A stretch of 64,000 nt of DNA from IMG/VR virus record IMGVR_UViG_3300042565_001021, positions 64,001-128,000 of that record; one strand, given 5' to 3'. Under the pieces are notes generated by a model. That model did no database searches and was not told the DNA's origin. It worked only from the letters and a program-made list of their open reading frames with translations. Below are positions 3,908 through 39,252 of this stretch, piece after piece (position 1 is the first letter of the stretch; every line of letters starts with the position of its first letter). Both the position numbers and the translations under genes were made by a program. Source of the stretch: a virus.

Positions 3908-4168
3908 TCATTTGTAACCAAAGTCAACCGAATATATTTGCCGGTACGGAAACACCCTAACAGTGGTGCCGAGCTTTAACGCTAAAAATGTACCTAATGC
4001 TTCATCTTCGCAGTATAGGTCAATATTGGTTCCGGTGGAGCGAACCTCCCATCCTGCTCCTCCAATGGCAATATTTCTATTAGATGGCAACCAGTATCGT
4101 TGCTCGGAGATGTTGTCGTTACACCAGCTAACTACATTCTGAACCTTGTTACCTATTATTACGCCCAT
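3908..4168 (-). CDS. 'L(K/R)W'-family-like small protein (degenerate)
   Basis: VVSWCNDNI...GW...EDEALGTFLALKL; start uncertain. Confidence 0.55.
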   Translation of the reverse strand: MGVIIGNKVQNVVSWCNDNISEQRYWLPSNRNIAIGGAGWEVRSTGTNIDLYCEDEALGTFLALKLGTTVRVFPYRQIYSVDFGYK

Positions 4169-4467
4169 TTTAGTTTCAATAGCGTCATTACCTCTTCGGA
4201 AACGTCGTACCACACACCTTTCACTTGCCGAACAATGAAGTAATCTTTATCTTCTACAAATGTTGCTCGTATCCATGTTAGCACTTTAGCATCGGCGGTA
4301 ATTGAATACATAGTCACACCGTCGACTACTGCCGATTCTAATACTGAATACATTTTTAATACCCCATACATCGGTTGAACTCCGACAATCTCGGCCGCAA
4401 TTAGATTAGGTACTATTCTTCGTATAAACGGAATCAGTACTTTTTGAAATTCTGTATGGTCTATCAT
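4159..4467 (-). CDS. 'L(K/R)W'-family protein with N-terminal gp23 Gol-like peptide
   Basis: VLIPFIRRIVPNLIAAEIVGVQPM followed by domain ending LLKLKWA. Confidence 0.8.
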   Translation of the reverse strand: MIDHTEFQKVLIPFIRRIVPNLIAAEIVGVQPMYGVLKMYSVLESAVVDGVTMYSITADAKVLTWIRATFVEDKDYFIVRQVKGVWYDVSEEVMTLLKLKWA

Positions 4468-4778
4468 AACCATTTTAATCTGAACATGAGCAGGTCTGCC
4501 TCATTGCGAAGAAAGATTCGGCAGTTTTTCTCACTGTGAGATATTCTCCAACGGTGCCTGCTGTGGTTACCGTCTGTCCCAAAGGCTTCTTTACACCAGG
4601 CTATTGCGTCGTGCCATTGCCTTAAAGGTATGTCAATTGCCCACTCGCCGTGGTAAGCTTTTCTTATCCAAATAGCATCAACAAGATACATCGAATCCAT
4701 CCCGTGGAGTACTTCGACGGTCCAGGTCCCTATAAGTTTTCGTGGACTGGCCTTAATCTGTGTCGTTGTTATTTCCAT
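4464..4778 (-). CDS. 'L(K/R)W'-family protein with N-terminal gp23-like peptide
   Basis: EITTTQIKASPRKLIGTWTVEVLHGMD followed by WCKEAFG...RW...NEADLLMFRLKWL. Confidence 0.8.
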   Translation of the reverse strand: MEITTTQIKASPRKLIGTWTVEVLHGMDSMYLVDAIWIRKAYHGEWAIDIPLRQWHDAIAWCKEAFGTDGNHSRHRWRISHSEKNCRIFLRNEADLLMFRLKWL

Positions 4779-4779
4779 T

Positions 4780-5022
4780 TTACTTCCATCGTAGTGTAAA
4801 GTATGACGCGTCGGTTTCGTTTTCAAAAGCAAAGATCGAGTGCAGATAGAAGCCACGCAGGTTTTTTATCCTTGACTTAACTTTTCCGGTCTTGTGTTTT
4901 TCTACCCAGCGGACTAAGCTGCGATGTCGTAATGATCCTTCTGAGACCGGATCTAAGTTTGTGCGGTGTTCGATGGTAGCCAGGTGCCATCCGTTTCGAA
5001 GCGACTTGCGCAGCGATGCCAT
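4780..5022 (-). CDS. 'L(K/R)W'-family small protein
   Basis: FAFENETDASYFTLRWK. Confidence 0.75.
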   Translation of the reverse strand: MASLRKSLRNGWHLATIEHRTNLDPVSEGSLRHRSLVRWVEKHKTGKVKSRIKNLRGFYLHSIFAFENETDASYFTLRWK

Positions 5023-5023
5023 T

Positions 5024-5323
5024 TTATTCTGCCTTTCTTTCCCTGATCAAGAATTCAAACAGAGTTCCAATGAAAGCTTCTACTGTAGCCGGACCTGTTA
5101 CTTTTACGTGTGAATAGTCGAGGTTGTGACGCCTGAGAACGTGAATGATATAACTTTCAAACGAGATCCAGTGTCGTACCCAATCTTCCATGTCTTTAAA
5201 TGTATCTGTTCCGTCAAAGTCAATGTAGTATCGATCTTCAATACATCGTCCCGTCACCTTTATCTTTAACGGTGAGCAGTATTCAACTAGCGGTTGAATA
5301 ATAGAACTTACAGTATCATCCAT
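5024..5323 (-). CDS. hypothetical protein
   Basis: 99 aa ORF in operon. Confidence 0.55.
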   Translation of the reverse strand: MDDTVSSIIQPLVEYCSPLKIKVTGRCIEDRYYIDFDGTDTFKDMEDWVRHWISFESYIIHVLRRHNLDYSHVKVTGPATVEAFIGTLFEFLIRERKAE

Positions 5324-5522
5324 TATGTTTCCATTTCAATGTAAAGAGCAATGCGTCTTGCTCGTTGCCAAATATGTATTCGTAAATGATGTCGTTAGTT
5401 ACGCTAACGTCGCTTACGTCAACTCCGTCTATAGTAATCAGATCAAGTTTAGAATCGTCAATGAATCTGCTCATTAAGTTAAGTTGTTCGTATGTTGGGT
5501 CTGCTATTAAAACCGTTTTCAT
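5316..5522 (-). CDS. 'L(K/R)W'-family small protein
   Basis: YIFGNEQDALLFTLKWK. Confidence 0.75.
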   Translation of the reverse strand: MKTVLIADPTYEQLNLMSRFIDDSKLDLITIDGVDVSDVSVTNDIIYEYIFGNEQDALLFTLKWKHNG

Positions 5523-5728
5523 TTCCATTTAAGCGAGATCCACGTGTAGGTCTCTTCCTCCATTTCGACCCAATATAGAATAGCCCCTGGACTAATAAAT
5601 ACCGGAATGCCGTATTCATTGATTAGCAGGTCTGTAAAGTCTCGAGAATTCAACGTGCCAAATTTGTGAGAAACCTTCGGAACAATCTCATTCATCAGTT
5701 TAGGAAATTGTCGTAGATCAACTTTCAT
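5519..5728 (-). CDS. 'L(K/R)W'-family small protein
   Basis: EEETYTWISLKWK. Confidence 0.7.
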   Translation of the reverse strand: MKVDLRQFPKLMNEIVPKVSHKFGTLNSRDFTDLLINEYGIPVFISPGAILYWVEMEEETYTWISLKWK

Positions 5729-5940
5729 AACCACTTCAGAGCAAATAGTGTTGCGTCTTTATCGTTTTCAAAAGTAAACTGTAGGTTCCCAAACATGCTG
5801 TACAGTTCCCACTTGAATGGGTTGTCTTCGTCTCGGGCATCTCTATGAAGCCAGCCGCCTTGACCAACGTTTTCTAGACACCATTGGATCATTTCTTCCT
5901 GTTTATGGTAATACTCTTTGTCAAGGTTAACGCTTTTCAT
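5725..5940 (-). CDS. 'L(K/R)W'-family small protein
   Basis: WCLENVG...FTFENDKDATLFALKWL. Confidence 0.8.
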   Translation of the reverse strand: MKSVNLDKEYYHKQEEMIQWCLENVGQGGWLHRDARDEDNPFKWELYSMFGNLQFTFENDKDATLFALKWL

Positions 5941-5941
5941 C

Positions 5942-6151
5942 TTAACTCCACTTCAACGAAAAGAAAGAGGCATCGTCGGCGTATTCAAACAGCACAGATA
6001 ACCCAAATACTACACTTGGTTGGAACTCTACTTCGCCCCTTGAATTTTTCTTACACCACTTAACCATCTCGGTTGTCTCGTCGAGGTACGGATTAGTAAG
6101 GTGTGGCAGTCGAACCACGGAAGAATTTGCGTACAATCGCCCCATGCCCAT
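5942..6151 (-). CDS. 'L(K/R)W'-family small protein
   Basis: WCKKN...FEYADDASFFSLKWS. Confidence 0.75.
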   Translation of the reverse strand: MGMGRLYANSSVVRLPHLTNPYLDETTEMVKWCKKNSRGEVEFQPSVVFGLSVLFEYADDASFFSLKWS

Positions 6152-7355: not shown

Positions 7356-7399
7356 ACTAACACTATACACTCTTTCGAGGAGTGTGTCAACCAGTATTT

Positions 7400-7801: not shown

Positions 7802-7822
7802 AGTAAAATTACTTATGCCAGC

Positions 7823-8517: not shown

Positions 8518-8518
8518 G

Positions 8519-9691: not shown

Positions 9692-9884
9692 CTTTTAGTT
9701 CTCCTATATAGTTGCTGCTTATTCAGCAGCATTTATACATTATGCGCTATTGCCGTTGCATAGTGCAAAACATTTGGTTAAATCAGTTTGGTTAGATCGC
9801 CCAAATCATTTGTTAACTTTTTTCATTATAAGGCGTTATTTGTATGTAGGCCTACAAACTTACACTAACCTTAAGGAAACCAAA

Positions 9885-10157
9885 ATGAACAAGATTATGA
9901 TTGTTTTACTTGCTGCTGTTTCTATGTCCGCTTTTGCTGCTGATGCTGCTAAGGCACCTGCTGCTCCTGCTGTTGCTGCTGCTCCTGCTGTTGCTGCTGC
10001 TCCTGCTGTTGCTGCTGCTCCTGCTGCTAAGGCAGAAGCACCAAAGGCTAAGGCAAAGCCTGCTAAAAGCAAAAAGGCAGCAAAGAAGCCAGCAGCAAAA
10101 ACTCCTGCTCCTGCTCCTGCTCCTGCCGCAGCGCCCGCCGCTGTTCCTGCTAAGTAA
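9885..10157 (+). CDS. secreted Ala/Pro/Lys-rich low-complexity protein
   Basis: Sec signal MNKIMIVLLAAVSMSAFA; AAPAVA repeats; AAGGA SD. Confidence 0.75.
   Translation: MNKIMIVLLAAVSMSAFAADAAKAPAAPAVAAAPAVAAAPAVAAAPAAKAEAPKAKAKPAKSKKAAKKPAAKTPAPAPAPAAAPAAVPAK
9960..10026 (+). repeat. 18-bp coding tandem repeat
   Basis: GCTGCTCCTGCTGTTGCT about 3.7 copies. Confidence 0.9.
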
Positions 10158-23829: not shown

Positions 23830-23831
23830 GA

Positions 23832-24461
23832 TTACTCGAATGTCACCCAAGGATCGGCAGCTATTATAGTCCCGTCTGCTCTCATTAACCAATTCTCAGA
23901 ATGTAGGTCAAGAATGATTTCTGTTAGGTTATGCGCATCAGCATACACTTGCGCAGCTTTATAAAGAAATGTTGTTGCTTCTAATATTCCGCTTACGGTG
24001 TTTGCACCAGTAAGCTTACTGTCAAGTAATACCTGTTCTAATCTATTAGATTCGTAACCTAAACCGTGTCCTTCGCACTTGACTGAGTTGGCGACATCCC
24101 ATAATACATTTGCGAGATAGTCGTTGTTAAGAGGATACAATCGTTCAATTCTGATTTGTAACACTTCCTCTGCGTCTACGTCTATACCATGTATAACCGG
24201 AAAATGTTTACTTTTGTACCCGTGGTCTACACAGAAGTGCACAAATGCCAAAGATGCTTTATGAACTCCTTTATCGGAGCCACCGAACCCGCCGCCTACG
24301 ACTTTAACGACAGTATCAGGGTCAGAAAAATGATTCCACACTGTGGCTGTGTATCCTTTGCCAACTTGGTTCCATCCAGACTGCTTACGAATTTCATCGT
24401 TAACGAATCCTGGGTCAAGCTCGTTTAGCTGTTCGTTCTCGAATAGTTCAGTTAGAAACAT
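23832..24461 (-). CDS. putative capsid-internal protein kinase-like enzyme
   Basis: Leader MFLTELFE; GKGYTATVW, VVKV, DLHSENWL, ADP. Confidence 0.78.
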   Translation of the reverse strand: MFLTELFENEQLNELDPGFVNDEIRKQSGWNQVGKGYTATVWNHFSDPDTVVKVVGGGFGGSDKGVHKASLAFVHFCVDHGYKSKHFPVIHGIDVDAEEVLQIRIERLYPLNNDYLANVLWDVANSVKCEGHGLGYESNRLEQVLLDSKLTGANTVSGILEATTFLYKAAQVYADAHNLTEIILDLHSENWLMRADGTIIAADPWVTFE

Positions 24462-24468
24462 AATATTC

Positions 24469-25017
24469 TCATAATGTGAACAGTGGACCTTGGATAAACC
24501 AGGTCTCTGTCCTTTCTTTAATCATTCCGTTGCGTAAAGCTTCGATGACGTCGGGTGTAAAGTCTCGATTCCGCCAACCTGATATTATCAGATGTGTTTC
24601 GACCGGAGCGTTACCTTCGAGCTCTAACTGGGCATTCATTCGGTGTCTACCTTCGTGCCCAGTTACCCAAGCCGGGAGAATAAACTTTCCGTTCTCCCAT
24701 TCTTCGTCTACGCTTATGTATAGTGTTGGTGCGCCGAAGCTTCCTCCGGTTCGAGCATGATTTTTCATTTTTTCAATGCTGCTTCTTGCTGAGTCGTCAA
24801 CGGTCAAGTTGCTTGCTAAATTTAAGAACTTGCTTGGCTTCATCATCACCCGCAGGCCCATGTAATCGATTTCTTGGTTGTTAGGCGTCTGGCCCCAACC
24901 TGATTGGTTATCAATGTTTAGCTCAGTAATTCTTGTCAACTCTTCAGACAACACCTTATCGACTTCTTTCTGAAGAATATCAAATACCGTTTCGTTAATG
25001 AATTCTTGTGCTCTCAT
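24469..25017 (-). CDS. putative capsid-internal ParB/Srx-like protein
   Basis: Leader MRAQEFINE; MKPSKFL, P.L, GHEGRHR. Confidence 0.7.
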   Translation of the reverse strand: MRAQEFINETVFDILQKEVDKVLSEELTRITELNIDNQSGWGQTPNNQEIDYMGLRVMMKPSKFLNLASNLTVDDSARSSIEKMKNHARTGGSFGAPTLYISVDEEWENGKFILPAWVTGHEGRHRMNAQLELEGNAPVETHLIISGWRNRDFTPDVIEALRNGMIKERTETWFIQGPLFTL

Positions 25018-25868
25018 TAGTCGTTCGCTCCTGGCGCCCACATATCTCCGTTAGGCTTAAAGCTAGTGCTGTTGCTGTTCGATCCGCTCTTATCAATTCC
25101 TGGGCGGGCTCCCCTCTCGTCGCTAGAGACGACCTTGTCACCGCTAACATCGCTGCTCCGTTCGTCTCGTTCGTCTGAGTAAAAATATCCTTGCTCGTCA
25201 CTGAATACCTGATCTGCTTCGGAATACCACGGGTCAGCAGCTATGATAGTTCCGTTTGGCCTCATTAACCAGTTGCCGCCGTGCAAATCTATCCAGCCTT
25301 CGTTTATATTGTGAGCTTCCAAATAAACTGGTAAGGCCTTGCTCAAATACTTAATAGCTTCGACTATCTCGTCGACGTTATTGTTCTCTTTCATGCCCTG
25401 TATTCCTGAATACTTCATTGCTGACAGCAATTCGATTTTCGATTTAGTTAATGCTGCGCCGCCGGTAACAGCATTAGCTAATCTGCTTAGACCGCTCCTT
25501 ACGTCACCGCTACTAATAGGAAGCAACTTCTCCATTCTGATCTGTAATACTTCGGCGTCGTCTATGTTTATTCCGTGAACGATAGGATAGTGCTTACTCG
25601 TGTGTCCGTGATCAACTAGAAAGTGAATAAACGCTAAAGTAATATTTCGATAGCCACCTTGCGCTTCGTAGTCTCCACCACCGACTACTTTAACTACGGT
25701 GTCTGGTTCTTGATAGTGTTGCCAAACTGACGCAGTAGCACCTTGTCCTAGCTTATCCCAGGCTCGTAAGTTTTTAAACTTACCTTGTGATTGCTGCTTG
25801 ATAACCTGGTTAACATAATCCGGGGCAAGTTCGGTTAGTTCAGTGTCAAATAATTCAGTTAGGAACAT
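25017..25868 (-). CDS. putative capsid-internal protein kinase-like enzyme
   Basis: Leader MFLTELFD; LGQGATASVW, VVKV, DLHGGNWL, ADP; TAAATA just upstream. Confidence 0.78.
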   Translation of the reverse strand: MFLTELFDTELTELAPDYVNQVIKQQSQGKFKNLRAWDKLGQGATASVWQHYQEPDTVVKVVGGGDYEAQGGYRNITLAFIHFLVDHGHTSKHYPIVHGINIDDAEVLQIRMEKLLPISSGDVRSGLSRLANAVTGGAALTKSKIELLSAMKYSGIQGMKENNNVDEIVEAIKYLSKALPVYLEAHNINEGWIDLHGGNWLMRPNGTIIAADPWYSEADQVFSDEQGYFYSDERDERSSDVSGDKVVSSDERGARPGIDKSGSNSNSTSFKPNGDMWAPGAND

Positions 25869-25877
25869 AGTTAGTAT

Positions 25878-26822
25878 TTACCTGTCGAACAATGCTGCGA
25901 TTTCTGCGGATTTCTTAGCTAACATCTCTTTAGTGTACTTTGCCTTCTCTATTGCCGCAGGGGTTTCTGCTTTGGCGAACTTACTGCTATTTATCGCTGT
26001 GTTGATTTTACCTAAGTAGATTTCTTTTACTCTCGGAATAAGTTCTTCTTTGCCTACGCTCTGTAAGATGCCTTTAATACTGTCGATCATATCGGCTACG
26101 CGGACTTCTCCGCCTACTAACCCGGGATACTGCTTAACTAACGGAGATGGTGTTCCTCCGAAAAACTTAACTATGTCAAGTGCCCAGGTCTTTGGGTTGT
26201 TAGTGACTGTCTTTAGGTCAACATCCTTAACTGTGCGGAACGGGACGAATGTGCCATTTTGGAATTTTGCTTGAACTCCGTGGCCGCCGCCGATGCTCAG
26301 ATTGAGGACTTCACCGAGCGACGAGTAAAGTGAGTTTGCTAACACACCTTTCATGTTCCACTCTGGCCGTAGTGCGTTAGTCCAGTCTTTATTCTCGTAG
26401 TAAGATGTGATTAGGTCGATCTGAACATAATCGTTTCCTATCTTTAGGATAACATTAACGCCGTTGTCTGAAGAAAAAGCAGAGGTTGAATCGCAAAACT
26501 CTTTAATAGCGTCGTTGTAGATCTTAAGGTTTGCGTTATTTGTGGTTCCTTCAATGCGTGGGATATGGAACTGGACATCAACGTCGCCATACTCTTTGTC
26601 TGGCTGTTGAACTAAGTCCCGTTCGTAGTATGTTGCGCTGCCACCCGGTGCCGATATCTCTGTTGGTCCTAATCCTTTTGTCTTTAGGAAGTTGTTCAAG
26701 GCGGGAATAAACTGAGTAGTTAATACCTTCATACATTGCTGAACGAGCCGTGGGGTAATAACTGTGTTTTGTGTTAGTGTCGATGCCCATCCACCTTCTA
26801 AAATAATTTCGTTAATTTTCAT
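25878..26822 (-). CDS. putative capsid-internal pol-beta-type nucleotidyltransferase
   Basis: Leader MKINEIILE; GGS...YGDVDV...VQIDLI. Confidence 0.7.
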   Translation of the reverse strand: MKINEIILEGGWASTLTQNTVITPRLVQQCMKVLTTQFIPALNNFLKTKGLGPTEISAPGGSATYYERDLVQQPDKEYGDVDVQFHIPRIEGTTNNANLKIYNDAIKEFCDSTSAFSSDNGVNVILKIGNDYVQIDLITSYYENKDWTNALRPEWNMKGVLANSLYSSLGEVLNLSIGGGHGVQAKFQNGTFVPFRTVKDVDLKTVTNNPKTWALDIVKFFGGTPSPLVKQYPGLVGGEVRVADMIDSIKGILQSVGKEELIPRVKEIYLGKINTAINSSKFAKAETPAAIEKAKYTKEMLAKKSAEIAALFDR

Positions 26823-27604
26823 AATATGTTCTTATCCCCAATAAACCAGGTTGTATTCATAAGATTTTCACTCATTTCCTTATTAGTTTTTAGATGTCGA
26901 GTCATCTTACTTTCAATGAATATTTCGCTTGGTCCTGCTTTTTCATATGCTGCTTCATTCCATTCTTTTTCTAAAGAGTTGATATCCGGGAAATCACCGG
27001 TTTGATCAGTTAATGTTAATCCTCTACCTTTAGCTAAGATAAGTTTCTTAAGCCATGTAAATCCTTCAGGAGTTAACCCTTCATTTTTTGAGATTTGTAT
27101 TTTTACTACAGCTTTAAGACGATGTGTTACGCAGCCAATTAATGCAGTAACATAACCGGGACCATTAACAAAGTTCCTAATTCCTTTTAACTCATTTCCT
27201 TTTAGTATTACTAGTGCATCAATACTGTCATCACCAATGAACGAGTAGACATCTTGATCATTTATATTACAGTGATATACATCTTTACCATCTAAACTAT
27301 TTACAATTTGAGATTTAGTAATTATTTGATTTTTCATATCTTGAGTTATATCTAATGCAGAATGGGCGTAGTCAATTTCAGTTAACCCTTCTTCGTTTGT
27401 CATCAACTTTTTAACACGCGGCTTGAATAGCTGGACATCTCCCTTATCGGTCTTTAACACTGGCTGATTGTGCTTATCCTTCTTAAAGCCTTTGATCTCG
27501 GCAGGGCTGTTCTTAAATTTACCCTTCATTACAACATCCCCGGTTTCCAATTCCGGAGGTTGGTAGGTTTCTGCACCTTCTACAATAAACTCGTTTGCTC
27601 TCAT
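26819..27604 (-). CDS. putative capsid-internal two-domain protein
   Basis: Leader MRANEFIVE; GKFKN small domain, internal LTE, GNAT-like remainder. Confidence 0.65.
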   Translation of the reverse strand: MRANEFIVEGAETYQPPELETGDVVMKGKFKNSPAEIKGFKKDKHNQPVLKTDKGDVQLFKPRVKKLMTNEEGLTEIDYAHSALDITQDMKNQIITKSQIVNSLDGKDVYHCNINDQDVYSFIGDDSIDALVILKGNELKGIRNFVNGPGYVTALIGCVTHRLKAVVKIQISKNEGLTPEGFTWLKKLILAKGRGLTLTDQTGDFPDINSLEKEWNEAAYEKAGPSEIFIESKMTRHLKTNKEMSENLMNTTWFIGDKNIL

Positions 27605-28011
27605 TCTTTGTTGCCACCTTTATATAGATCAGCAATACCTTTGCCAAAGTCATTTCCGTTGTATATACGCATAGACGATGGGATAATATCGTTGCCTAAC
27701 TCTTTAGCAAAGACATACATCTCTTTCGCAATACCTTGTCGGCGATACTCTGGCTTTACTTCGACGAATACTGCTTCTAAGTTGTTGTCTGTCACTTTGT
27801 ATGTTACGTTGCCTACTTTGTTGCCTTTAGCAGTGAAGGCGTCAATGTGAAAGTTTTCGCTTGTATTAATCTTCTTAGTTGGCGAATACGGTAGCGGGCC
27901 GTGGTATGCTTTAAGCATATACTTGCCGCCGAGTATCTCTTTCGTCTTTTCAAACCCGCGGCGGAATACTTGCGGGTTGATGCTGTCAGTTATGAACTCA
28001 GATGATTTCAT
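27601..28011 (-). CDS. putative capsid-internal GNAT acetyltransferase
   Basis: Leader MKSSEFITD; VEVKPEYRRQGIAKEMY. Confidence 0.78.
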   Translation of the reverse strand: MKSSEFITDSINPQVFRRGFEKTKEILGGKYMLKAYHGPLPYSPTKKINTSENFHIDAFTAKGNKVGNVTYKVTDNNLEAVFVEVKPEYRRQGIAKEMYVFAKELGNDIIPSSMRIYNGNDFGKGIADLYKGGNKE

Positions 28012-28448
28012 TGCACTCCTTTAATTACTAATCGCCAATCACTAAATTTTAATCGCAACACAGTTAAGAACTGATCTTTATCTGACTCAGTCTGAAATAG
28101 TAAAGTGTTACTAAGCTTATCCCCACTAACTCGCTCACCGTCCGGAAATCGATATATCTGTCCTAAGTATTCAAAATAAAACATGTCAGTTTGATGATCT
28201 TGTAATACTACTGGACCAGAAAAGTGTTTCACTGATAATAATTTACCAAGAGGAATAACAAGAAAACTAACTGGAGAAACCTTTGCCCCGATCTGCGGTG
28301 TAACTTGTTGCTGTTGAGCCAAGAAACTTTGAAGAATCTTAAAATCATCATTATCCTCAAATAACTCAGGACGATCTAATAGCATAATACGGACATCCTC
28401 GTATTGCTCATCTAACACATCAATATAAGAGAACTCAGAGGATTTCAT
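28008..28448 (-). CDS. putative capsid-internal protein
   Basis: Leader MKSSEF. Confidence 0.6.
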   Translation of the reverse strand: MKSSEFSYIDVLDEQYEDVRIMLLDRPELFEDNDDFKILQSFLAQQQQVTPQIGAKVSPVSFLVIPLGKLLSVKHFSGPVVLQDHQTDMFYFEYLGQIYRFPDGERVSGDKLSNTLLFQTESDKDQFLTVLRLKFSDWRLVIKGVQ

Positions 28449-28870
28449 ATTTGCTGTAACACCGGAATTGATGTTAACCCTAATTCAATAGCTCGTTGCA
28501 CACGGTGATTTCCGTCTATTATAAAACCATCTTTAGCTAATACCGGTGGAGTTTGAGTTAAACTTTGATAAGTAACATTTCTGGCGCGAGCCTGGTCCAT
28601 TTTAAATGGATCAGAGTTAATAATATCCGTCCCTGCTTCTTGATCGCTAAACGTTCTATATCGAGATGCTTCGTCAGAACTAATATTTGTTAATTTATAT
28701 TTGTGCTTAGAGATATACGTCCTATCACCTGCACCCAAATACATGTGCTCATCTAAATAATCTGCTACTACACTTCCGCGCACTATGTCACCAGGTTTGC
28801 CCCAAGCAAAGCCAACAACTCGCTTAATAAAGTCGATCAACCCCTCAGTTATGAATTCTGTCGACTTCAT
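28445..28870 (-). CDS. putative capsid-internal ParB/Srx-like protein
   Basis: Leader MKSTEFITE; PPVL....IIDGNHRV..A..LG...IPV. Confidence 0.75.
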   Translation of the reverse strand: MKSTEFITEGLIDFIKRVVGFAWGKPGDIVRGSVVADYLDEHMYLGAGDRTYISKHKYKLTNISSDEASRYRTFSDQEAGTDIINSDPFKMDQARARNVTYQSLTQTPPVLAKDGFIIDGNHRVQRAIELGLTSIPVLQQI

Positions 28871-29280
28871 TATCTCTTCCGTGTGCAAGCAGGGTGTGAA
28901 CCGTCACTCAATGATTTGCGGATTGCTTCGGAGTAGCGTGTCCATTTCGTTAGCTCTGCGTCGCTCAGTTCCATAAAGCGATTGTCCATCTCTACCCAGG
29001 CTTTTTCAATATCCGTTAATGGTTTGTTATACTGGTATTCGTGCTCGCGGATCTTATCTTCAGCGTTGATTGCTGCTGCGCGATGCTGTACAATACACTT
29101 CTTCGCTGCTTCGCTTGCTGCACCAGAATCAAAACGGTTCTTACCTTCAAAGCGTCCAATCTCTTTGCCATCAGCAGTAGCTACGAAGGTGTTCGTTAAA
29201 TCACCATCCTCGTCTTGGAGGCGGGTAATCTCATACTTTACCTTGCGAGCATCTTCTTTTAGGAATTCTTTGCTTAACAT
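28870..29280 (-). CDS. putative capsid-internal protein
   Basis: Leader MLSKEFLKE. Confidence 0.6.
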   Translation of the reverse strand: MLSKEFLKEDARKVKYEITRLQDEDGDLTNTFVATADGKEIGRFEGKNRFDSGAASEAAKKCIVQHRAAAINAEDKIREHEYQYNKPLTDIEKAWVEMDNRFMELSDAELTKWTRYSEAIRKSLSDGSHPACTRKR

Positions 29281-29972
29281 TAAACGGTTTCTCCCCAGGC
29301 AGTCATTAAGTTAACCACCATGCTGTCATTGTTTGGTCCATACAAAGGGAGTAAATAAAAAGACTCAGCGTGTAGCATAACTTCGTTTTTACTTCTGACT
29401 GCTTCTTTAACTGCGCCGACTTGATAGTCCCCGTCATCAAGCATCCATTTAATGGCCCCTATTAGGTTACGGTTGTTAGTATCTCCAACCCAATAACTCT
29501 TGCTAAATCCCGCTGCGGCAACTACCTCGCTAGGATAATGGTTAAACAAGAACATGTCGAGATGCTCAGTAAGGTCAGATATCTCGGGCGACCAACAAGC
29601 AGTAAATTCTCCTCTTGGAATGACTAATAAAGGATTGCCGTAGTCTCTAGCCATACCTTGAGATCCGGTCGCAAACAAAGCATTACTTCTGAACTTTATG
29701 CCAGTCGTTTCCTCGAAATATGCGTCGGCAATCTGATGAATAGCAAGGGGAGTATCTTTTGGCTTTCTGTTGACCGGGCACATGAGCACAGTGACTTGGT
29801 CAACACCCCTTCTTCCGTGATATAAGTCGTGCCTGTATAAGTCAAAGTCGATGGACTTTAGGTAAGGTTGACACTCGCTTTTTAGTACCTCAGCAAAACG
29901 GCGGAATTCCGGGGAGATAACAATTTCTTTCCCGGCTACAGTTACTTCAGTTATAAATTCAGAGCTTTTCAC
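29280..29972 (-). CDS. putative capsid-internal protein, possible ART fold
   Basis: Leader MKSSEFITE; LYHG, RSNALFATG, NEVM. Confidence 0.65.
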   Translation of the reverse strand: MKSSEFITEVTVAGKEIVISPEFRRFAEVLKSECQPYLKSIDFDLYRHDLYHGRRGVDQVTVLMCPVNRKPKDTPLAIHQIADAYFEETTGIKFRSNALFATGSQGMARDYGNPLLVIPRGEFTACWSPEISDLTEHLDMFLFNHYPSEVVAAAGFSKSYWVGDTNNRNLIGAIKWMLDDGDYQVGAVKEAVRSKNEVMLHAESFYLLPLYGPNNDSMVVNLMTAWGETV

Positions 29973-30004
29973 TACTCGACATCCTTGGACATCGAGTATT
30001 TATC
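29973..30004 (-). promoter_or_regulatory. late promoter overlapping an RBS-enclosing hairpin
   Basis: TAAATA; TACTCGA...TCGAGTA inverted repeat around AAGGA, just before GTG. Confidence 0.6.
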
Positions 30005-30007: not shown

Positions 30008-30595
30008 TTAGCGTCGAGTAATGATTTCGTCCACTAAGCCAAAGTCCAGGGCTTCTTGTGCGGACATGAAATTATCACGCTCCATGGCAGCAGCAAATTC
30101 GTCAAACGTCTTGCCTTTGCTATTGTGATCAACGTAGATCTGCGTAAGAACCTTCTTCATTTTGAGGATTTCTTCGACCTGAATAAGCATGTCCGTTGCT
30201 TGACCACGTGCACCACCGCTAGGTTGGTGAATCATGTGTCGTGCATACGGGAGGATCATGCGCTTACCTTTCGCGCCTGCTTGAGCAAGCAACGAACCCA
30301 TGCTACAGGCCTGACCCATTACGATAGTGCGAACGTCACACTTTACGAATTGCATGGTATCGTAGATGGCCATACCTGCCGTTACGATGCCGCCCGGGGA
30401 GTTGATGTAAAAGATAATCTCTTTGTCTGCATCTTCTGCTTCAAGGAACAACATTTGCGCTACGACTACGCTAGACGACACCTCGTTTACGTCATCGTGA
30501 AGCATAACGATACGGTCTTTAAGCAAGCGACTGTAGATATCGTAGCTACGTTCGCCTTTAGCGGTTTGCTCGACTACCATTGGAATAAGGGACAC
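30008..30595 (-). CDS. clpP: ATP-dependent Clp protease proteolytic subunit
   Basis: [35 protein letters not shown]. Confidence 0.95.
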
Positions 30596-30662: not shown

Positions 30663-30748
30663 ATAAATAAAAGTGCAGTTCGCGATGTTGAAGCATCCAA
30701 CTGCCCTAGACTAACCAGGAGGCTATATGTCCAGCAATAATACTTATT
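30663..30748 (+). promoter_or_regulatory. late promoter plus conserved structured leader (copy 2)
   Basis: TAAATA; GCAGTT-CGC-GATG/CATC-C-AACTGC; AGGAGG. Confidence 0.75.
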
Positions 30749-31275
30749 ACGTTTACGCATATCTGCGCAATAAAGACTCAAAAACTGCTAAAGCAGGAAC
30801 ACCTTATTATATTGGCAAAGGATCAGGACGACGCGCCTGGGTAACCCATAAACATAAGACCCCGGTGCCGAAAGATAAAACGTTTATTGTTCTACTTGAA
30901 CAGAATTTAACTGAAGTCGGAGCATTAGCCTTAGAGAGGAGAATGATTGCTTGGCATGGAAGAAAAGATTTAGGAACAGGCATTCTATTAAATAGAACAG
31001 ACGGAGGAGACGGTTGTAGCGGAGTTATTATGTCTGAATTAACTAAAGAAAAACGTAATGCTGCGCAAAGAGGAAAGAAGTTGTCAGAAGAACATAAGAG
31101 AAAAATATCTGTCGGTTCAAAATCAAGACCGCCTATATCCGAAGAAACGAGAGAAAAATTTAGGCTACGAAACAAAAACCGGGCGCCGATGACAGCTGAA
31201 GAGAGGGTAAAATTATCAATTGCAGTAACGCAGTCATGGGCAAGAAGAAAATTACTTAAATCTTCTGCCGCTTAA
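30727..31275 (+). CDS. GIY-YIG homing endonuclease with NUMOD3-like repeats
   Basis: YYVYAYLR...PYYIGKG, LLNRTDGGDG, LSEEHKRKIS. Confidence 0.85.
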   Translation: MSSNNTYYVYAYLRNKDSKTAKAGTPYYIGKGSGRRAWVTHKHKTPVPKDKTFIVLLEQNLTEVGALALERRMIAWHGRKDLGTGILLNRTDGGDGCSGVIMSELTKEKRNAAQRGKKLSEEHKRKISVGSKSRPPISEETREKFRLRNKNRAPMTAEERVKLSIAVTQSWARRKLLKSSAA

Positions 31276-35123: not shown

Positions 35124-35149
35124 AGAAAAGCCCGTCAACCGGGCTTTCC
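35124..35149 (-). terminator. rho-independent terminator
   Basis: AAAGCCCG...CGGGCTTT. Confidence 0.65.
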
Positions 35150-35171
35150 TGTATTACTGCCTGTTAAAGCA

Positions 35172-35657: not shown

Positions 35658-35766
35658 TTCTTAATTCTCCTATAGTTGTCTATTACGACATACAATTATT
35701 TAGTCTAAGTTAACAACAACTATTATTTTTCTACCTTTTTTGAGGAGAAATATGCGTATATTTTGA

Positions 35767-35961
35767 TTACAGCCATTTTAGCTTAAACATTAGGAATTCT
35801 GCTTCGGTTTTGAACGCAAAGTTTCGCATACCAACTCGCTTCCCAGATTGAGTAGCCGTACACCATTGTTCCATGTCATTCAATGTTGGCATTTGTGTAT
35901 CGGAAGTGTCTATTTTAACCATGATGTAGTTTTCGGTGTATGCTACTTCTTTAATTTTCAT
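35767..35961 (-). CDS. 'L(K/R)W'-family small protein
   Basis: WC...GKR...FAFKTEAEFLMFKLKWL. Confidence 0.75.
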   Translation of the reverse strand: MKIKEVAYTENYIMVKIDTSDTQMPTLNDMEQWCTATQSGKRVGMRNFAFKTEAEFLMFKLKWL

Positions 35962-36337
35962 TTTTGCCCGACCAAATTAAAGCAAACCATACAGCATCTT
36001 TTTCTTGCGTGAAGCTAAACGTAACAGGTGCCCATCCTACAGCCTTCCATGAGCGTTTGCTTTTGATGTTATGATAACACCAGTCAACCCGTGGGTCCAC
36101 ATCAGTTACATACTTTACCATTTTTGGCACTGTAATATGGTACTTCATTTTCTGCTCGGCCCAGGTCAGAGCAAACAAAACCGCGTCTGCTTCTTTATAG
36201 AACCAGAATCGCACTGGTTGATAACACGAGTAATCCCACTCGGCATAGTTCATTCGTTCAAGACACCAATGGATGCGCGGGTCCTGAGCTTCTAATCGAG
36301 TATCTGGCAAATCTATCATGTGGGAACACCTCTTCAT
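35951..36337 (-). CDS. 'L(K/R)W'-family tandem two-domain protein
   Basis: DPR..WC...EADAVLFALTW then DPR..WC...EKDAVWFALIW. Confidence 0.75.
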   Translation of the reverse strand: MKRCSHMIDLPDTRLEAQDPRIHWCLERMNYAEWDYSCYQPVRFWFYKEADAVLFALTWAEQKMKYHITVPKMVKYVTDVDPRVDWCYHNIKSKRSWKAVGWAPVTFSFTQEKDAVWFALIWSGKNEN

Positions 36338-36759
36338 GATCCACCCCACCGCAGCGCGAACCACATGAAATCTTTTTCGTCTTTGAACGCGAAGAACACG
36401 TAATCGAGGCCGCCGATATCGTTGAGGCAGTAACCGTTATATTCTGTTTTAATCACCCGGTGGACGTCATAGCGGTACTTGTGCTTTATATTTTCTTTAC
36501 ACCAGTTATCCATTTCATCTAATGCTTGTAACCAGTCGCCGTACTTTGTCCAAATGTCTCCGAGCGGATCTTCAAACGTGCGAACGTAAGGATACCCCTC
36601 ATACCAATTTGTAATTTGGGTTGCTCGGTAAATGACATCGGGGTCAAACCTACGTGCGTATTCCTCTTCGGACTCGCACCCGTTCTTTTTTAGAAACCTT
36701 TTTCGTTTCTTCTCGTGATATTTTTTCGAGAGAGTTTCAAAGTAACCTTTTAAGACCAT
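36334..36759 (-). CDS. 'L(K/R)W'-family protein with N-terminal extension
   Basis: WCKENI...FAFKDEKDFMWFALRW. Confidence 0.75.
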   Translation of the reverse strand: MVLKGYFETLSKKYHEKKRKRFLKKNGCESEEEYARRFDPDVIYRATQITNWYEGYPYVRTFEDPLGDIWTKYGDWLQALDEMDNWCKENIKHKYRYDVHRVIKTEYNGYCLNDIGGLDYVFFAFKDEKDFMWFALRWGGS

Positions 36760-36998
36760 TTTAGAGAAAACATGATTAGTTGCTGCTCGTCAACGAAACG
36801 AATCATAGCCTTTTTATTCAACTTAACGATTTCTGCTCCGCCGTATTCTTCAAATAGCCAATCTCGAAAAGCTTTTCCTTCACCGTAATTAGAAGGAATA
36901 TAGTACCTACCTATACCTAATCCGTGCGGCGGATCTATGTTGCGACTCTCGTACCAATGGAGCAGCACCTTTGCGCCGATAGGGTTATACGGTATCAT
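36750..36998 (-). CDS. 'L(K/R)W'-family small protein
   Basis: FVDEQQLIMFSLKWS. Confidence 0.7.
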   Translation of the reverse strand: MIPYNPIGAKVLLHWYESRNIDPPHGLGIGRYYIPSNYGEGKAFRDWLFEEYGGAEIVKLNKKAMIRFVDEQQLIMFSLKWS

Positions 36999-37006
36999 TG
37001 AATATT

Positions 37007-37222
37007 TTACGACCATCGCAGTAGAAACAGCATACGTTCTTTGTCATCACGAAATCTAAATGCGTTAAACGAGAGTCTTACTCCGCAGTCGTTTTCTTTA
37101 CACCAAATTTCAAGCTCGTCAAGCATAGTGCTCATTCGCACAGCTCTATCGCCTGCTACAGCAAACACAGAGATCTCAGAAACTCCGAGAGTGACAAACT
37201 CTAATTTTTTGCCGAACGACAT
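37007..37222 (-). CDS. 'L(K/R)W'-family small protein
   Basis: WCKENDCGVR...FRFRDDKERMLFLLRWS. Confidence 0.75.
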   Translation of the reverse strand: MSFGKKLEFVTLGVSEISVFAVAGDRAVRMSTMLDELEIWCKENDCGVRLSFNAFRFRDDKERMLFLLRWS

Positions 37223-37223
37223 T

Positions 37224-37511
37224 TTAGTGTAGCGTGTGAGTTTTATACCCTTGAATCAGCACCTGGAGTCTCAGAAGCTCAGCTGTTACCTCGGGCGCAA
37301 GAGAAGCAATGGTTGCCTCGTGGATCCGAATCGCTTTCATGTTCTCGTCAAACTCGAGAAATGCCCCGCAGTAAAAGCACAGCGAAACATCGCCTGGTGC
37401 TGGGCCGCCCTGGCCTTCTTGCGAAGGAGAAGCAGCATCCAGCATTGATTCACAGCAAGGGCAAGTGACCTCTGGCAATAATGTTACTTCTGGTTCAAAA
37501 GACGAAGTCAT
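37224..37511 (-). CDS. Zn-ribbon hypothetical protein
   Basis: CPCC...P.PGD.SLCFYCG. Confidence 0.65.
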   Translation of the reverse strand: MTSSFEPEVTLLPEVTCPCCESMLDAASPSQEGQGGPAPGDVSLCFYCGAFLEFDENMKAIRIHEATIASLAPEVTAELLRLQVLIQGYKTHTLH

Positions 37512-38616
37512 GGTATTTGCTCTTTTGCTTGGTAAAGGTAACAGTTGCGCCTTTGTCGTTGGAGTAAGTAAACGCTCCGGTTGCTGCGTCGATCTTCTTC
37601 AGATTCAGGTAAGTGAATTGGAAGTTTGCGCCTTCTGCGGGCAGCTTCGGATCTGTTGTAGATTTAGCAACAGCGGTGGCACCTTGAACCGATGGAGCAT
37701 CTTCGTCGTCATCAGTACCGTAGTAGTTGATGTGGAAGCGATCCTTGGATAGCGGGTTGCTTTCCATAGTCTTCGGGTGGTAAATCCCTTCCGGTACATC
37801 GATACCGTTGATCTTCATTGTGATGTCGTAAACGCCGCCGTCGTCGGACTGTGGCTTTGCGTTCAGCATCTTCATTGCTTCTTGTGCTGTTTCACCGTAG
37901 CGGTTCATTTCTTCAACAAGCGACTTCAGCATGTCGAAGTTGAATGCGCTGAACATAGAGCTAATGCGGCAGATGTTTTCGATCTGCTCTTTGTTCTTGA
38001 GGTTCTCTTCGCAGTATTCGGTAATGAATTCAGTTTCGAGTCCGTGGAAATCAAGCATGTAAAAGATTCGACCTGGACGGTTGCGCATGTGGGAATCAAT
38101 GCGCCACTTGTCGTTACAGGTGAGCACGAACAGTTTTTTACTTGGGAATACGCCGTCGAGCAGTGTCAGGATAGCGGATTGTTCGTCGGCGTCGTAGACC
38201 TTTTCGAACTCGTCGAACAGGATCATACAAGGCTGTTGAATGCTTTGGATTAGTGTGTTGAACTTTTCGCCGTTCCATGCGGTGTTGATGATAATAGTTG
38301 GCATGTCTTGCGCAGCACAAGCGATAGAAAGAGACTTTGCGAGCAGCGTCTTGCCGGAACCTTTTTCGCCTGTTAGCAGAACACCGGTCGTCGCTGGCCG
38401 GTCGTTGAATGTGTTCATGATGCGTTCTGTGTGACGCAGGGTGTCGCCGTACACTTTGTGCTTCAGTTCGAAGTCGTCAATGGACTCGAAGTAGAAGTTT
38501 TCGTACTGGTCCATTTTAATTGTGTAGTTGCCGGGAGGCAGGGCCGGAGTTAGGTTTAGAACCTCGTCGTCATAAGGAACAAAAGTGTTTCCGGATTTCC
38601 TAAATTGGGTAGCCAT
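37495..38616 (-). CDS. AAA family ATPase
   Basis: GEKGSGKT, LFDEFEK, LLDG, NRPGR. Confidence 0.9.
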   Translation of the reverse strand: MATQFRKSGNTFVPYDDEVLNLTPALPPGNYTIKMDQYENFYFESIDDFELKHKVYGDTLRHTERIMNTFNDRPATTGVLLTGEKGSGKTLLAKSLSIACAAQDMPTIIINTAWNGEKFNTLIQSIQQPCMILFDEFEKVYDADEQSAILTLLDGVFPSKKLFVLTCNDKWRIDSHMRNRPGRIFYMLDFHGLETEFITEYCEENLKNKEQIENICRISSMFSAFNFDMLKSLVEEMNRYGETAQEAMKMLNAKPQSDDGGVYDITMKINGIDVPEGIYHPKTMESNPLSKDRFHINYYGTDDDEDAPSVQGATAVAKSTTDPKLPAEGANFQFTYLNLKKIDAATGAFTYSNDKGATVTFTKQKSKYHDFVF

Positions 38617-38680
38617 TTGTCGCTTTCTTTAAATGATAAAACATTATATGCTACTTTGTGTTTTTGAGCAAGTATTTTGG

Positions 38681-38938
38681 TTATCGCGGTCCGGTGCTTC
38701 CCGTTCCTGTATCAAATGGCCATCTGGCTCGGGGAGCTTTATCTAACAAGTGCCCAGCAAGTAACAGGAACCAAGCTAAATCTTTTTCATTCGCAAAATA
38801 AAACTCGTCGTTGTTTGTCCTTGACCAACGGACATATTCTAAGCCAAAATGATCCTGGCAGATTTTAGTCACTTCGAAAAAGTGCGCCCCGTAAGTGTTT
38901 GGCGCTTTGAACCAGTGTTCGAAAATTACTTCTTTCAT
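38681..38938 (-). CDS. 'L(K/R)W'-family small protein
   Basis: CQDHFG...RW...FYFANEKDLAWFLL. Confidence 0.7.
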   Translation of the reverse strand: MKEVIFEHWFKAPNTYGAHFFEVTKICQDHFGLEYVRWSRTNNDEFYFANEKDLAWFLLLAGHLLDKAPRARWPFDTGTGSTGPR

Positions 38939-39252
38939 TTCTTTAGCGGAATGTAAGGAGCGTAGAATGCTGCTCCCTCATAACCAACCATTAAAGAAGA
39001 CGTGTTGGACAGATGGCTACCTGTCAGGGCAAACCAGGTTATGTCCTTCTTGTAGCGAAACTGGAGAACACCACCAAATGTTAGCCTCCAGTTGCCGTGG
39101 TTGTCTCTTGTCTTTTTAGTAGCGTGGTTGTAGGATGTGCTGTGCTCTGGTCCAAAATGCTGAGTACATAACTGCCGTACTTCCTCACGCTTGTACGAGT
39201 ACCTGCCTTCAGCTTCGTACCATGATACTTTAGTTTTAGTTTTCTTGCTCAT
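38935..39252 (-). CDS. 'L(K/R)W'-family protein with C-terminal gp23-like peptide
   Basis: CTQHFG...W...FRYKKDITWFAL then LMVGYEGAAFYAPYIPL. Confidence 0.78.
   Translation of the reverse strand: MSKKTKTKVSWYEAEGRYSYKREEVRQLCTQHFGPEHSTSYNHATKKTRDNHGNWRLTFGGVLQFRYKKDITWFALTGSHLSNTSSLMVGYEGAAFYAPYIPLKK

What the first reader, a model, noticed from the sequence alone, without database searches (positions are those of the whole stretch)
4159..39252. Candidate capsid-mimic (decoy) system: three array members display different conserved blocks of the gp23 major capsid protein
Seen: three genes of the 'L(K/R)W' family carry terminal add-ons of 17-29 aa. From recalled T4 gp23 sequence, these match three highly conserved gp23-family blocks: the Gol region, the 'AKSRQLKA..HGMD' block, and the 'VGYKG..YAPY' block. 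Two of the grafts lack an internal segment, so they look like trimmed modules rather than a broken capsid gene. Known: several defences sense major capsid proteins (Lit through the Gol peptide bound to EF-Tu; CapRel). Inference: the small scaffold presents capsid epitopes to titrate or block capsid-sensing immunity, or to poison capsid assembly of competing phages. I know of no description of such a system.
Basis: partly seen in the sequence, partly recalled or inferred. Interest (0 to 1): 0.92.

Follow-up and report, generated by a model that had tools for sequence, protein, structure and literature searches.

The report
Small phage proteins displaying capsid-protein peptides
An uncultured giant T4-like lake phage keeps three small, probably early genes that each attach a short copy of a different conserved stretch of the major capsid protein to one small scaffold domain; hundreds of related uncultured phage sequences share the design under protein-level selection, I found no published description, and its function is untested.

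Summary
Three genes in arrays of about 21 small 'F.L(K/R)W'-ending paralogs carry terminal tails homologous to gp23-type major capsid protein (MCP). ORF1 carries the Gol block and passes Pfam Gp23 directly. ORF2 carries the 'AK.RKL..WT.E..HGMD' block and ORF3 the 'VGYKG..FYAPYIPL' block. Both are validated through 76-80% identical relatives whose fuller tails pass Pfam Gp23; the window copies have 6-residue in-frame deletions.

The tails lie inside translationally coupled ORFs, outside the folded domain (AlphaFold2: flexible). They are better conserved than the scaffold, while their synonymous sites are scrambled. They differ from the resident MCP gene in three complete relatives, so they are neither a broken capsid gene nor gene conversion.

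A profile of the ORF1 group finds 749 clusters of small proteins. Cultured phages show one Gol site per genome. Other architectures occur, including a spine-helix graft. All segments map to the N-arm or P domain. MCP was the only clear donor.

Strong sigma-70-type promoters precede two arrays. The function is untested. My best guess (about 0.4) is mimicry of nascent MCP toward a host sensor or factor; the rivals are MCP folding or assembly control, EF-Tu modulation, and competitor poisoning.

This scan has noted similar arrays on other DNA. I found no published description.

The parts
4159..4473 (-). ORF1 (104 aa; the database gene call starts at the second ATG, 102 aa): N-terminal Gol-type MCP tail plus a divergent LKW-type scaffold ending LLKLKWA
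   Evidence: Pfam Gp23 at 32.5 bits. Orthologs keep both parts. The start overlaps the stop of ORF2 (AAATGGTTATGA).
4369..4443 (-). Graft 1: 'KVLIPFIRRIVPNLIAAEIVGVQPM', equivalent to T4 gp23 residues 94-117 (Gol region; N-arm and first P-domain strand)
   Evidence: Mean pairwise identity is 0.67 in the graft against 0.38 in the rest of the protein.
4464..4778 (-). ORF2 (104 aa): N-terminal MCP block-2 tail plus LKW domain
   Evidence: LKW HMM E 3.8e-11. Relatives P0006-P0008. AlphaFold2 pLDDT 83.5 with residues 1-30 as a coil tail.
4695..4769 (-). Graft 2: 'TTTQIKASPRKLIGTWTVEVLHGMD', equivalent to T4 gp23 about 257-285 (the strand after the insertion-domain linker, then His282-Gly-Met284-Asp); 6 residues deleted relative to P0006
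38935..39252 (-). ORF3 (105 aa): LKW-type domain whose K-W is replaced by T-G, then a linker and a C-terminal MCP block-3 tail
   Evidence: LKW HMM E 3.2e-9. P0004 is 80% identical. L025 of genome G003 has the same design. The stop overlaps the next gene's ATG.
38944..38991 (-). Graft 3: 'MVGYEGAAFYAPYIPL', equivalent to T4 gp23 about 436-456 (P-domain beta-sheet, includes the A455 position); 6 residues deleted relative to P0004
4159..6151 (-). LKW array 1 (8 genes including ORF1 and ORF2), with genes overlapping by 4-10 nt
35767..37222 (-). LKW array 2 (5 genes, one a tandem of two domains)
38681..40754 (-). LKW array 3 (9 genes including ORF3)
7362..7390 (-). Sigma-70-type promoter-like site TTGACA-17-TATAGT (11 of 12) upstream of the unit that contains array 1
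41288..41316 (-). Perfect sigma-70 consensus TTGACA-17-TATAAT (12 of 12) at the head of the unit that contains arrays 3 and 2
35124..35150 (-). Strong intrinsic-terminator-like hairpin (11 pairs plus a T run) closing that unit

Best explanation
Each of the three genes encodes a small two-part protein. One part is a folded domain of about 70 residues with beta-beta-alpha-beta-beta-alpha topology (the 'LKW' scaffold, one of about 21 paralogs here). The other part is a flexible terminal tail that copies one linear, conserved N-arm or P-domain segment of a gp23-type major capsid protein. Shown: the tails are translated, are old, are maintained by selection on the amino-acid sequence, and are common in this clade of uncultured freshwater T4-like jumbo phages. 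Inferred: the genes are transcribed early by host RNA polymerase, before MCP is made. The tails act by molecular mimicry of nascent or unfolded MCP. They occupy a factor that recognises these linear segments before they are buried in the capsid. The most likely target is a host sensor or co-factor of capsid-triggered abortive infection, of the Gol/EF-Tu/Lit kind or another MCP sensor. The scaffold would prevent the productive, suicidal outcome, so the protein would be an antagonist and not a plain decoy. My odds: about 0.85 that these are functional peptide-display modules, and about 0.4 that their role is to blunt MCP-triggered immunity.
For: Homology of all three tails to gp23. ORFs are intact and starts and stops are coupled to neighbours. 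The tails are outside the confident fold. In the ORF1 group 11 of 25 graft positions are invariant, and graft identity is 0.67 against 0.38 for the rest. The block-3 motif 'AAFYAPY(I/V)PL' is identical between ORF3 and G003's L025, although these proteins are only 38% identical overall. Of the 13-19 identical graft residues between phages, usually only 2-10 use the same codon. Fragment against resident MCP shows nucleotide identity 0.55-0.71, which indicates protein-level selection and no gene conversion. All 3 complete relatives have a full MCP plus one or more extra fragment genes. There are 749 clusters at E<=1e-3, and apart from one repeat artefact (P0011) all of the top 150 are 57-233 aa. 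MCP is the only clear donor among 305 proteins of G001. Near-perfect and perfect sigma-70 promoters stand upstream of arrays 1 and 3/2. The arrays of fast-diverging small paralogs look like accessory-gene arsenals. The Gol region is a documented immune cofactor that binds EF-Tu as a linear peptide (PMC3014915), and MCPs are direct triggers of other systems (PMC9712102, listed). RNA-library contigs cover ORF2 and most of array 1 (weak, because DNA carry-over is not excluded).
Against: No functional test exists. Isolated Gol peptide activates Lit, so a mimic could be harmful unless the scaffold blocks activation. The near-universal presence and strong conservation across phages that presumably infect different hosts fit a conserved partner (own MCP or assembly machinery, EF-Tu, chaperonin) at least as well as sporadically distributed immune sensors. 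Block 2 erodes in more distant relatives: P0008 lost HGMD. Early timing rests only on consensus promoter matches. No RNA contig covered ORF1, and absence of cover is not evidence.
Confidence: 0.4

Rival explanations
1. Regulators or helpers of the phage's own MCP folding or assembly. By offering single P-domain strands, the spine helix or the N-arm in trans, they would bind unfolded MCP (strand complementation), or its chaperonin, scaffold or portal partner, and so time or proof-read head assembly.
For: Every graft type seen maps to the N-arm or P domain, and none maps to the equally conserved A-domain block 'TRRGA.NW.VVSP'. In T4 the gp31-bypass mutations lie in the same elements (A455 in the P-domain sheet; G292, V306 and V307 in the spine helix), and Met98, His282 and Met284 anchor the portal whisker (PMC9546572). 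The contig encodes a GroES-like co-chaperonin at G000:49176-49562 (my reading of the translation; not run against a family library). The gene type is present in all complete relatives. G002's and G003's fragments match their own MCP block (17/25 each) better than the other two MCPs (10-17/25); G001's does not.
Against: Sigma-70 promoters and the position in early-type accessory arrays, not in the head module. Only 3 of about 21 scaffold paralogs carry grafts. The scaffolds and the positions of the graft (N- or C-terminal) vary freely.
Confidence: 0.25
2. EF-Tu-directed modulators (this applies to the Gol-type tail only). The tail docks the scaffold on EF-Tu domains II/III, as the T4 Gol peptide does, to tune or shut off host translation or to shield EF-Tu.
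For: Gol binds EF-Tu:GDP and inhibits its GTPase, and Kleanthous and colleagues proposed that the interaction is general to T4-like phages (PMC3014915). EF-Tu is conserved enough to explain the uniform conservation of the tail. A protein with a bL12 C-terminal-domain segment, the ribosomal factor-binding element, lies 300 nt downstream (PF00542 at 28.1 bits).
Against: This does not explain blocks 2 and 3 or the spine-helix grafts. The bL12-like gene is not linked to the Gol gene in G001 or G003. EF-Tu is very abundant and hard to titrate (general knowledge).
Confidence: 0.15
3. Weapons against co-infecting relatives: dominant-negative capsid peptides, made early, that poison the assembly of competing gp23-type capsids.
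For: The grafts are the blocks most conserved across gp23-type MCPs, so they would be broadly active. They are expressed early. Fragments differ from the resident MCP at some positions, for example IAQ(D/E)I against IAN/TE.
Against: The phage's own MCP keeps the same blocks, so self-poisoning would be expected. No evidence of binding.
Confidence: 0.1
4. Neutral relics: pieces of an MCP gene captured by illegitimate recombination in recombination-prone arrays and slowly decaying.
For: Indels in the middle of blocks 2 and 3, and graded erosion of block 2 in P0007 and P0008. Many homing endonucleases in the genome.
Against: The grafts are always in frame, in sense orientation and terminal. Amino acids are conserved while codons are randomised. 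There are hundreds of divergent carriers. Independent architectures occur. The donor is restricted to one protein and to its P domain and N-arm.
Confidence: 0.05

Closest known systems
Gol region of T4 gp23 in the Gol / EF-Tu / Lit (prophage e14) exclusion system
   Same: Graft 1 is the same segment (T4 94-117 of the 93-122 Gol region) with the RR..PNLIA....GVQPM core. Gol acts as a linear peptide outside the capsid context.
   Different: In T4 the peptide is part of the full MCP and is a liability to the phage. Here it is a separate, conserved small gene fused to an unrelated scaffold, probably expressed early, and it is accompanied by other MCP segments. No Lit homolog or EF-Tu binding was tested.
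Direct sensing of major capsid proteins by abortive-infection systems (CapRel SJ46, PMC9712102; Avs-type STAND receptors for core phage proteins, bioRxiv 10.64898/2026.01.04.697583)
   Same: These establish that conserved capsid and core proteins are immune triggers, which is the premise of a mimic or antagonist.
   Different: No phage-encoded capsid-peptide antagonist of these systems was found in the literature searches. The known escapes I know of are point mutations (from memory).
Phage anti-defence mimics and sponges (from memory: Ocr DNA mimic, Tad/Acb-type sponges)
   Same: Small, early, fast-evolving accessory proteins that work by mimicry or sequestration.
   Different: Those mimic DNA or bind signalling nucleotides. 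Here the mimicked object is the phage's own structural protein, as short linear peptides on a paralogous scaffold.
T4 capsid-targeting sequence (CTS) of internal proteins
   Same: A short terminal peptide appended to diverse small proteins. This phage also has an operon of proteins with CTS-like N-termini (M-K-S-S-E-F-I-T-E type, window 21333-30002).
   Different: The CTS is not derived from MCP, and as I recall it binds the scaffolding core. The LKW grafts are MCP copies and occur on only 3 of about 21 paralogs.
PHROG 12830 and PHROG 13936 (short families; 12830 is labelled 'major head protein')
   Same: They hit the graft segments. They probably collect similar small fragment-bearing proteins.
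   Different: They are annotated only by similarity to the MCP. They are not recognised as a separate class, and no function is given.

Membership tests
Gp23 major capsid protein (Pfam PF07068) | Local sequence match to the profile above the gathering score | tested here: met
   ORF1 scores 32.5 bits against 24.4. Close relatives of ORF2 and ORF3 (P0006 at 27.4, P0004 at 27.3) also pass. The window's ORF2 and ORF3 themselves gave no Gp23 match up to E 10.
Gp23 major capsid protein (Pfam PF07068) | Full-length HK97-fold capsid protein covering most of the 376-position profile | tested here: not met
   Only 16-30 residues match per protein (profile 3-32, about 135-176, about 297-333). Full MCPs of 392-407 aa exist elsewhere in the relatives. 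These proteins are therefore not capsid proteins.
LKW small-protein family (defined here) | Match to the 44-position C-terminal domain HMM (W-helix ... F.F..E.DA..F.L(K/R)W) | tested here: met
   ORF2 E 3.8e-11 and ORF3 E 3.2e-9. ORF1 is not found by the HMM, but the profile-profile comparison gives probability 61% and E 8e-5, and the predicted topology is the same. For ORF1 the result is inconclusive to weakly met.
Functional Gol peptide (cofactor of Lit, EF-Tu binder) | Sequence correspondence to the 29-residue Gol region of T4 gp23 | tested here: met
   The tail aligns to T4 residues 94-117.
Functional Gol peptide (cofactor of Lit, EF-Tu binder) | Binding to EF-Tu domains II/III and licensing of Lit cleavage | not testable with these tools
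   This is a biochemical property (PMC3014915). The host is unknown.
Anti-defence decoy or antagonist | Inhibits a defined defence system | not testable with these tools
   No assay is available, and no PADLOC or anti-defence family search was run.
Pseudogene or recombination relic of the capsid gene | Disrupted frame, no selection on the protein, or near-identity to the resident MCP gene (recent copy) | tested here: not met
   The ORFs are intact and coupled. Amino acids are conserved while codons are scrambled, and nucleotide identity to the own MCP is 0.55-0.71.

The most novel reading that the evidence does not exclude
These phages maintain a 'self-epitope library': a hypervariable family of small early scaffold proteins that display linear copies of the most conserved segments of their own core proteins. 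The capsid N-arm and P-domain segments are certain; a DNA-polymerase motif B in relatives is possible. The library would blind or mis-direct host pattern-recognition immunity that senses nascent core proteins. That would be a counter-defence principle not yet described for any virus of bacteria.
Probability: 0.3. Interest if true: 0.92.

Novelty: categorically new. Interest (0 to 1): 0.82.

Why it matters
If the tails work by mimicry, they mark the linear capsid segments that host factors read on nascent MCP. That would make the old question of why the Gol region binds EF-Tu, and how capsid-sensing immunity is countered, directly testable with small, easily expressed proteins. If they act on the phage's own head assembly instead, they would be a new class of trans-acting capsid-folding factors. 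In either case, short 'major head protein' hits in metagenome annotation (for example PHROG 12830) should not be read as capsid genes. The scaffold family, with dozens of paralogs per genome, is also a large uncharacterised accessory arsenal of freshwater jumbo phages.

Tried and rejected
1. Complex prediction on ORF2 + ORF3 + ORF1, testing whether the three tails rebuild a P-domain-like sheet: score 0.00, no verdict. This is no evidence either way.
2. Fold searches with the ORF2 model. Foldseek against PDB gave nothing at E<=1e-3. BFVD returned only uncharacterised proteins of uncultured phages. VIA-align wide reached Z<=5.4, showing generic two-layer alpha/beta arrangements such as eIF1/SUI1, DCoH and YbjN. 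No fold assignment was made.
4. The search for related loci with ORF2 and ORF3 found no close relative in IMG/VR.
5. megablast of the array against cultured phages: no match.
6. Survey for grafts from other proteins (portal, terminase, tail). All 305 G001 proteins of 150 aa or more were compared with the small-protein set. Only MCP stood above the reversed-sequence control, which itself reaches E 3e-6.
7. A DNA-polymerase motif-B-like peptide after an LKW-like domain in G003 and G005 is suggestive (pairwise E 3e-4) but not significant genome-wide.
8. Late-promoter motif TATAAATA: 3 matches against 2.5 expected, so not informative.
9. RNA-library contigs gave no cover of ORF1. No conclusion is drawn from this.
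10. Linkage of the Gol gene with the bL12-like gene is not conserved in G001 or G003.
11. P0011 (1194 aa, 19 'Gol-like' stretches) is a repeat artefact and was ignored.
12. Literature searches for a phage-encoded capsid or Gol decoy found nothing relevant.


Full report
**Setting.** The window is bases 64001-128000 of a 155 kb IMG/VR viral contig. CheckV estimates it at about 44% complete, so this is a jumbo phage. The same DNA is found in lake-water metagenomes from many studies. The contig holds no full gp23-type capsid gene: the only Pfam Gp23 match is the 30-residue stretch in ORF1. On the minus strand lie three arrays of small overlapping genes whose products end in F.F..E.DA..F.L(K/R)W. 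The arrays are at 4159-6151, 35767-37222 and 38681-40754. An HMM iterated from them finds 20 ORFs in the contig, all inside the window, and 26 more in a complete relative.

- ORF1 (4159-4473, minus strand) begins at the stop of the upstream gene (AAATGGTTATGA). Its residues 11-35 read KVLIPFIRRIVPNLIAAEIVGVQPM. This passes Pfam Gp23 (E 8.3e-8; 32.5 bits against 24.4) and PHROG 138. By tblastn it matches the capsid gene of about 2000 cultured T4-like phages.
- ORF2 really starts at the ATG at 4778, directly after the upstream stop. It opens with MEITTTQIKASPRKLIGTWTVEVLHGMD.
- ORF3 (38935-39252) ends with ...SSLMVGYEGAAFYAPYIPLKK, and its stop overlaps the next gene's ATG.

On their own the tails of ORF2 and ORF3 are weak. 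Against a profile of three related MCPs they rank 5th and 3rd of 2533 frames of the contig, at E 2.5 and 0.49. Closer relatives settle the matter:
- P0006 is 76% identical to ORF2 and has TIKASPRKLNGTWTVETMQPMQVQHGMDS.
- P0004 is 80% identical to ORF3 and has MVGYKGVSRYDAASFYAPYIP.
- Both pass the Pfam Gp23 gathering score, at 27.4 and 27.3 bits.

The window's versions are the same segments with 6-residue in-frame deletions.

**They are not a broken capsid gene.** I checked three complete relatives: G001 (374 kb), G002 (360 kb) and G003 (462 kb).
- Each has a normal 392-407 aa gp23-type MCP, plus at least one separate small ORF with a Gp23 fragment.
- In G001 the fragment gene sits inside a row of about 35 LKW genes.
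- Fragment and resident MCP share 13-17 of 25 residues but only 2-10 identical codons, with nucleotide identity 0.55-0.71. This excludes recent copying or gene conversion.
- Between phages, 13-19 identical residues rest on mostly different codons. Conservation is therefore at the protein level.
- In the ORF1 ortholog group (seven sequences, scaffolds 26-41% identical) 11 of the 25 graft positions are invariant. Mean pairwise identity is 0.67 in the graft against 0.38 elsewhere.
- ORF3 and G003's L025 protein are 38% identical overall but share AAFYAPY(I/V)PL exactly.
- Block 2 is less constrained: the HGMD part is lost in the 51% relative P0008.

**The design is widespread and modular.**
- A profile of the ORF1 group, searched against 1.84 billion cluster representatives, gives 749 hits at E<=1e-3 and 61 at E<=1e-10. 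Setting aside one repeat artefact (P0011, 1194 aa), the top 150 are all proteins of 57-233 aa. Most match over the whole length, that is tail plus scaffold.
- Other architectures exist. An LKW-like domain is followed by a C-terminal Gol block that extends further into MCP (G003, G004, G005; up to 55.7 bits).
- Gol blocks also occur on other scaffolds (L002, L008, L014, P0052, P0112).
- In L006 a block-3 ORF is immediately followed by a block-1 ORF (24.7 bits).
- In L007 an LKW member has an N-terminal tail matching the MCP spine helix (Pfam E 0.13).
- In cultured phages the Gol block occurs once per genome: 1996 places in 1995 records, and 2110 in 2108. The phenomenon is not seen in the isolate collection.
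- All 305 proteins of 150 aa or more from G001 were compared with the pooled small proteins. Only the MCP gave clear matches above a reversed-sequence control. I found no portal, terminase or tail grafts.

**Structure.**
- AlphaFold2 on ORF2 with 46 family rows gives pLDDT 83.5. Residues 31-104 form a confident beta-beta-alpha-beta-beta-alpha domain, and residues 1-30 (the graft) are an unstructured tail.
- ORF1 gives the same topology at lower confidence, with a low-confidence Gol segment.
- A profile-profile comparison links the ORF1 scaffold to the family (probability 61%, E 8e-5).
- No solved fold matched convincingly.

**Where the segments sit in the capsid protein.** I aligned a related MCP to T4 gp23 and took the domain assignments from PMC9546572.
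- Graft 1 corresponds to T4 94-117. This is the end of the N-arm, which is disordered in the unexpanded head, and it includes the Met98 position.
- Graft 2 corresponds to about 257-285 and includes His282 and Met284 of the P domain.
- The spine-helix graft corresponds to about 286-310.
- Graft 3 corresponds to about 436-456, in the P-domain sheet, and includes the A455 position.
- No graft comes from the equally conserved A-domain block.
- In T4 these same elements carry the gp31-bypass mutations and the portal-whisker contact.

**Expression.**
- A 12-of-12 sigma-70 consensus promoter at 41316-41288 and a strong terminator at 35150-35124 bracket a 6.2 kb minus-strand unit that holds arrays 3 and 2.
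- An 11-of-12 site at 7390-7362 precedes array 1.
- This suggests early transcription by host polymerase. It is an inference from consensus matches only.
- Contigs from two metatranscriptome libraries cover ORF2 and most of array 1, but they cannot prove transcription.

**Mechanism.** What is shown is a conserved, translated peptide-display design. What it does is inferred.

My preferred reading (about 0.4) is mimicry of nascent MCP toward a host factor that reads these linear segments, blunting capsid-triggered abortive infection. The arguments for it are:
- the genes look early and accessory;
- the Gol peptide is a documented linear cofactor that binds EF-Tu and licenses Lit (PMC3014915);
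- MCPs directly trigger other systems (PMC9712102).

The main objection is that isolated Gol activates Lit, so an antagonist mode must be assumed.

The strongest rival (0.25) is control of the phage's own MCP folding or assembly. It is favoured by the P-domain and N-arm restriction, the T4 genetics, a GroES-like gene in the contig (my reading of the translation) and the near-core distribution. An EF-Tu-modulator role for the Gol tail (0.15), poisoning of competitors (0.1) and neutral relics (0.05) follow.

**Novelty.** I found no published description. Earlier notes of this scan report similar capsid-fragment mini-gene arrays on at least eight other genomes. These are unchecked AI notes. They agree with what I found but are not independent evidence.

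Noticed in passing
window 3450-3866 (-): A 138-aa phage protein holds a 25-residue segment of the ribosomal bL12 C-terminal (factor-binding) domain (PF00542, 28.1 bits against 25.9). It lies 300 nt downstream of the Gol-tail gene and behind its own sigma-70-like promoter (3927-3899). Similar genes exist in G001 and G003 but are not linked to the Gol gene there.
   Followed up: partly
window 21333-30002 (-): A run of about 12 proteins starts with T4 capsid-targeting-sequence-like N-termini (MKSSEFITE, MRAKEFTVE, MRANEFIVE, MFLTELFE...). These may be packaged internal proteins. An earlier first-reader note of this scan also flagged them.
   Followed up: no
G000:C1:50661-50999 (-), outside the window (13 kb upstream): A 112-aa ORF between DNA-polymerase-like and replication genes matches the MCP block 2 plus spine helix (custom MCP profile E 2.7e-4, rank 2 of 2533 frames). 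It has no LKW ending. It could be another capsid-derived segment or a chance helical match.
   Followed up: partly
L024 594-1214 (+), L019 1898-2488 (-), L018 564-1406 (+): The gene directly upstream of the LKW-Gol fusion in G003, G004 and G005 has an LKW-like domain followed by 'LQKLFKKIALNSQYG' or 'LKKMALNSSYG'. This resembles family-B DNA polymerase motif B (Kx3NSxYG) of G001's 890-aa polymerase (11 of 18 identical; pairwise E 3e-4). It is not significant genome-wide, and the G004 copy is degenerate.
   Followed up: partly
L007 7701-7988 (+): An LKW family member has an N-terminal tail 'MIEEEMAATLAKEIQKEIDESIL' that matches the MCP spine helix (custom profile E 0.005; Pfam Gp23 E 0.13). This is a fourth kind of capsid graft.
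   Followed up: partly
L006 2161-2403 and 2372-2680 (+): Two adjacent small ORFs. The first ends with MCP block 3 through 'TRY' (Pfam Gp23 24.7 bits). The second starts with the Gol block. This gives a C-terminal piece followed by an N-terminal piece of MCP as neighbours.
   Followed up: partly
window 1575-2312 (+), 30727-31275 (+), 41392-42009 (+): Three GIY-YIG-type homing endonuclease genes lie on the opposite strand to their neighbours. One splits an RNA ligase (862-2847), as earlier notes of the scan describe.
   Followed up: no
window 30008-30595 (-): A ClpP-family protease gene lies far from any head gene in this contig. In G004 (L021) a ClpP-like gene sits next to a 205-aa Gp23-like ORF.
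   Followed up: no
window 38681-38938 (-): The paralog next to ORF3 also lacks the K-W ending ('WFLLLAGHLL') and carries a 20-residue C-terminal extension 'DKAPRARWPFDTGTGSTGPR' with no match found.
   Followed up: partly
window 9750-10157 (+): A small secreted-looking protein with a signal peptide and Ala/Pro-rich repeats (AAPAVAAAPAV...), encoded on the strand opposite to nearly all other genes.
   Followed up: no
window 35951-36364 (-): One array member is a tandem of two LKW domains in a single ORF (HMM hits at residues 55-92 and 117-156 of the frame).
   Followed up: no
G003:C1:259851-259982 (-): A 128-aa frame matches positions 1-42 of the MCP profile (the N-terminal propeptide) at E 0.0016. 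It may be a vertex-protein or scaffold relative, or another graft.
   Followed up: no
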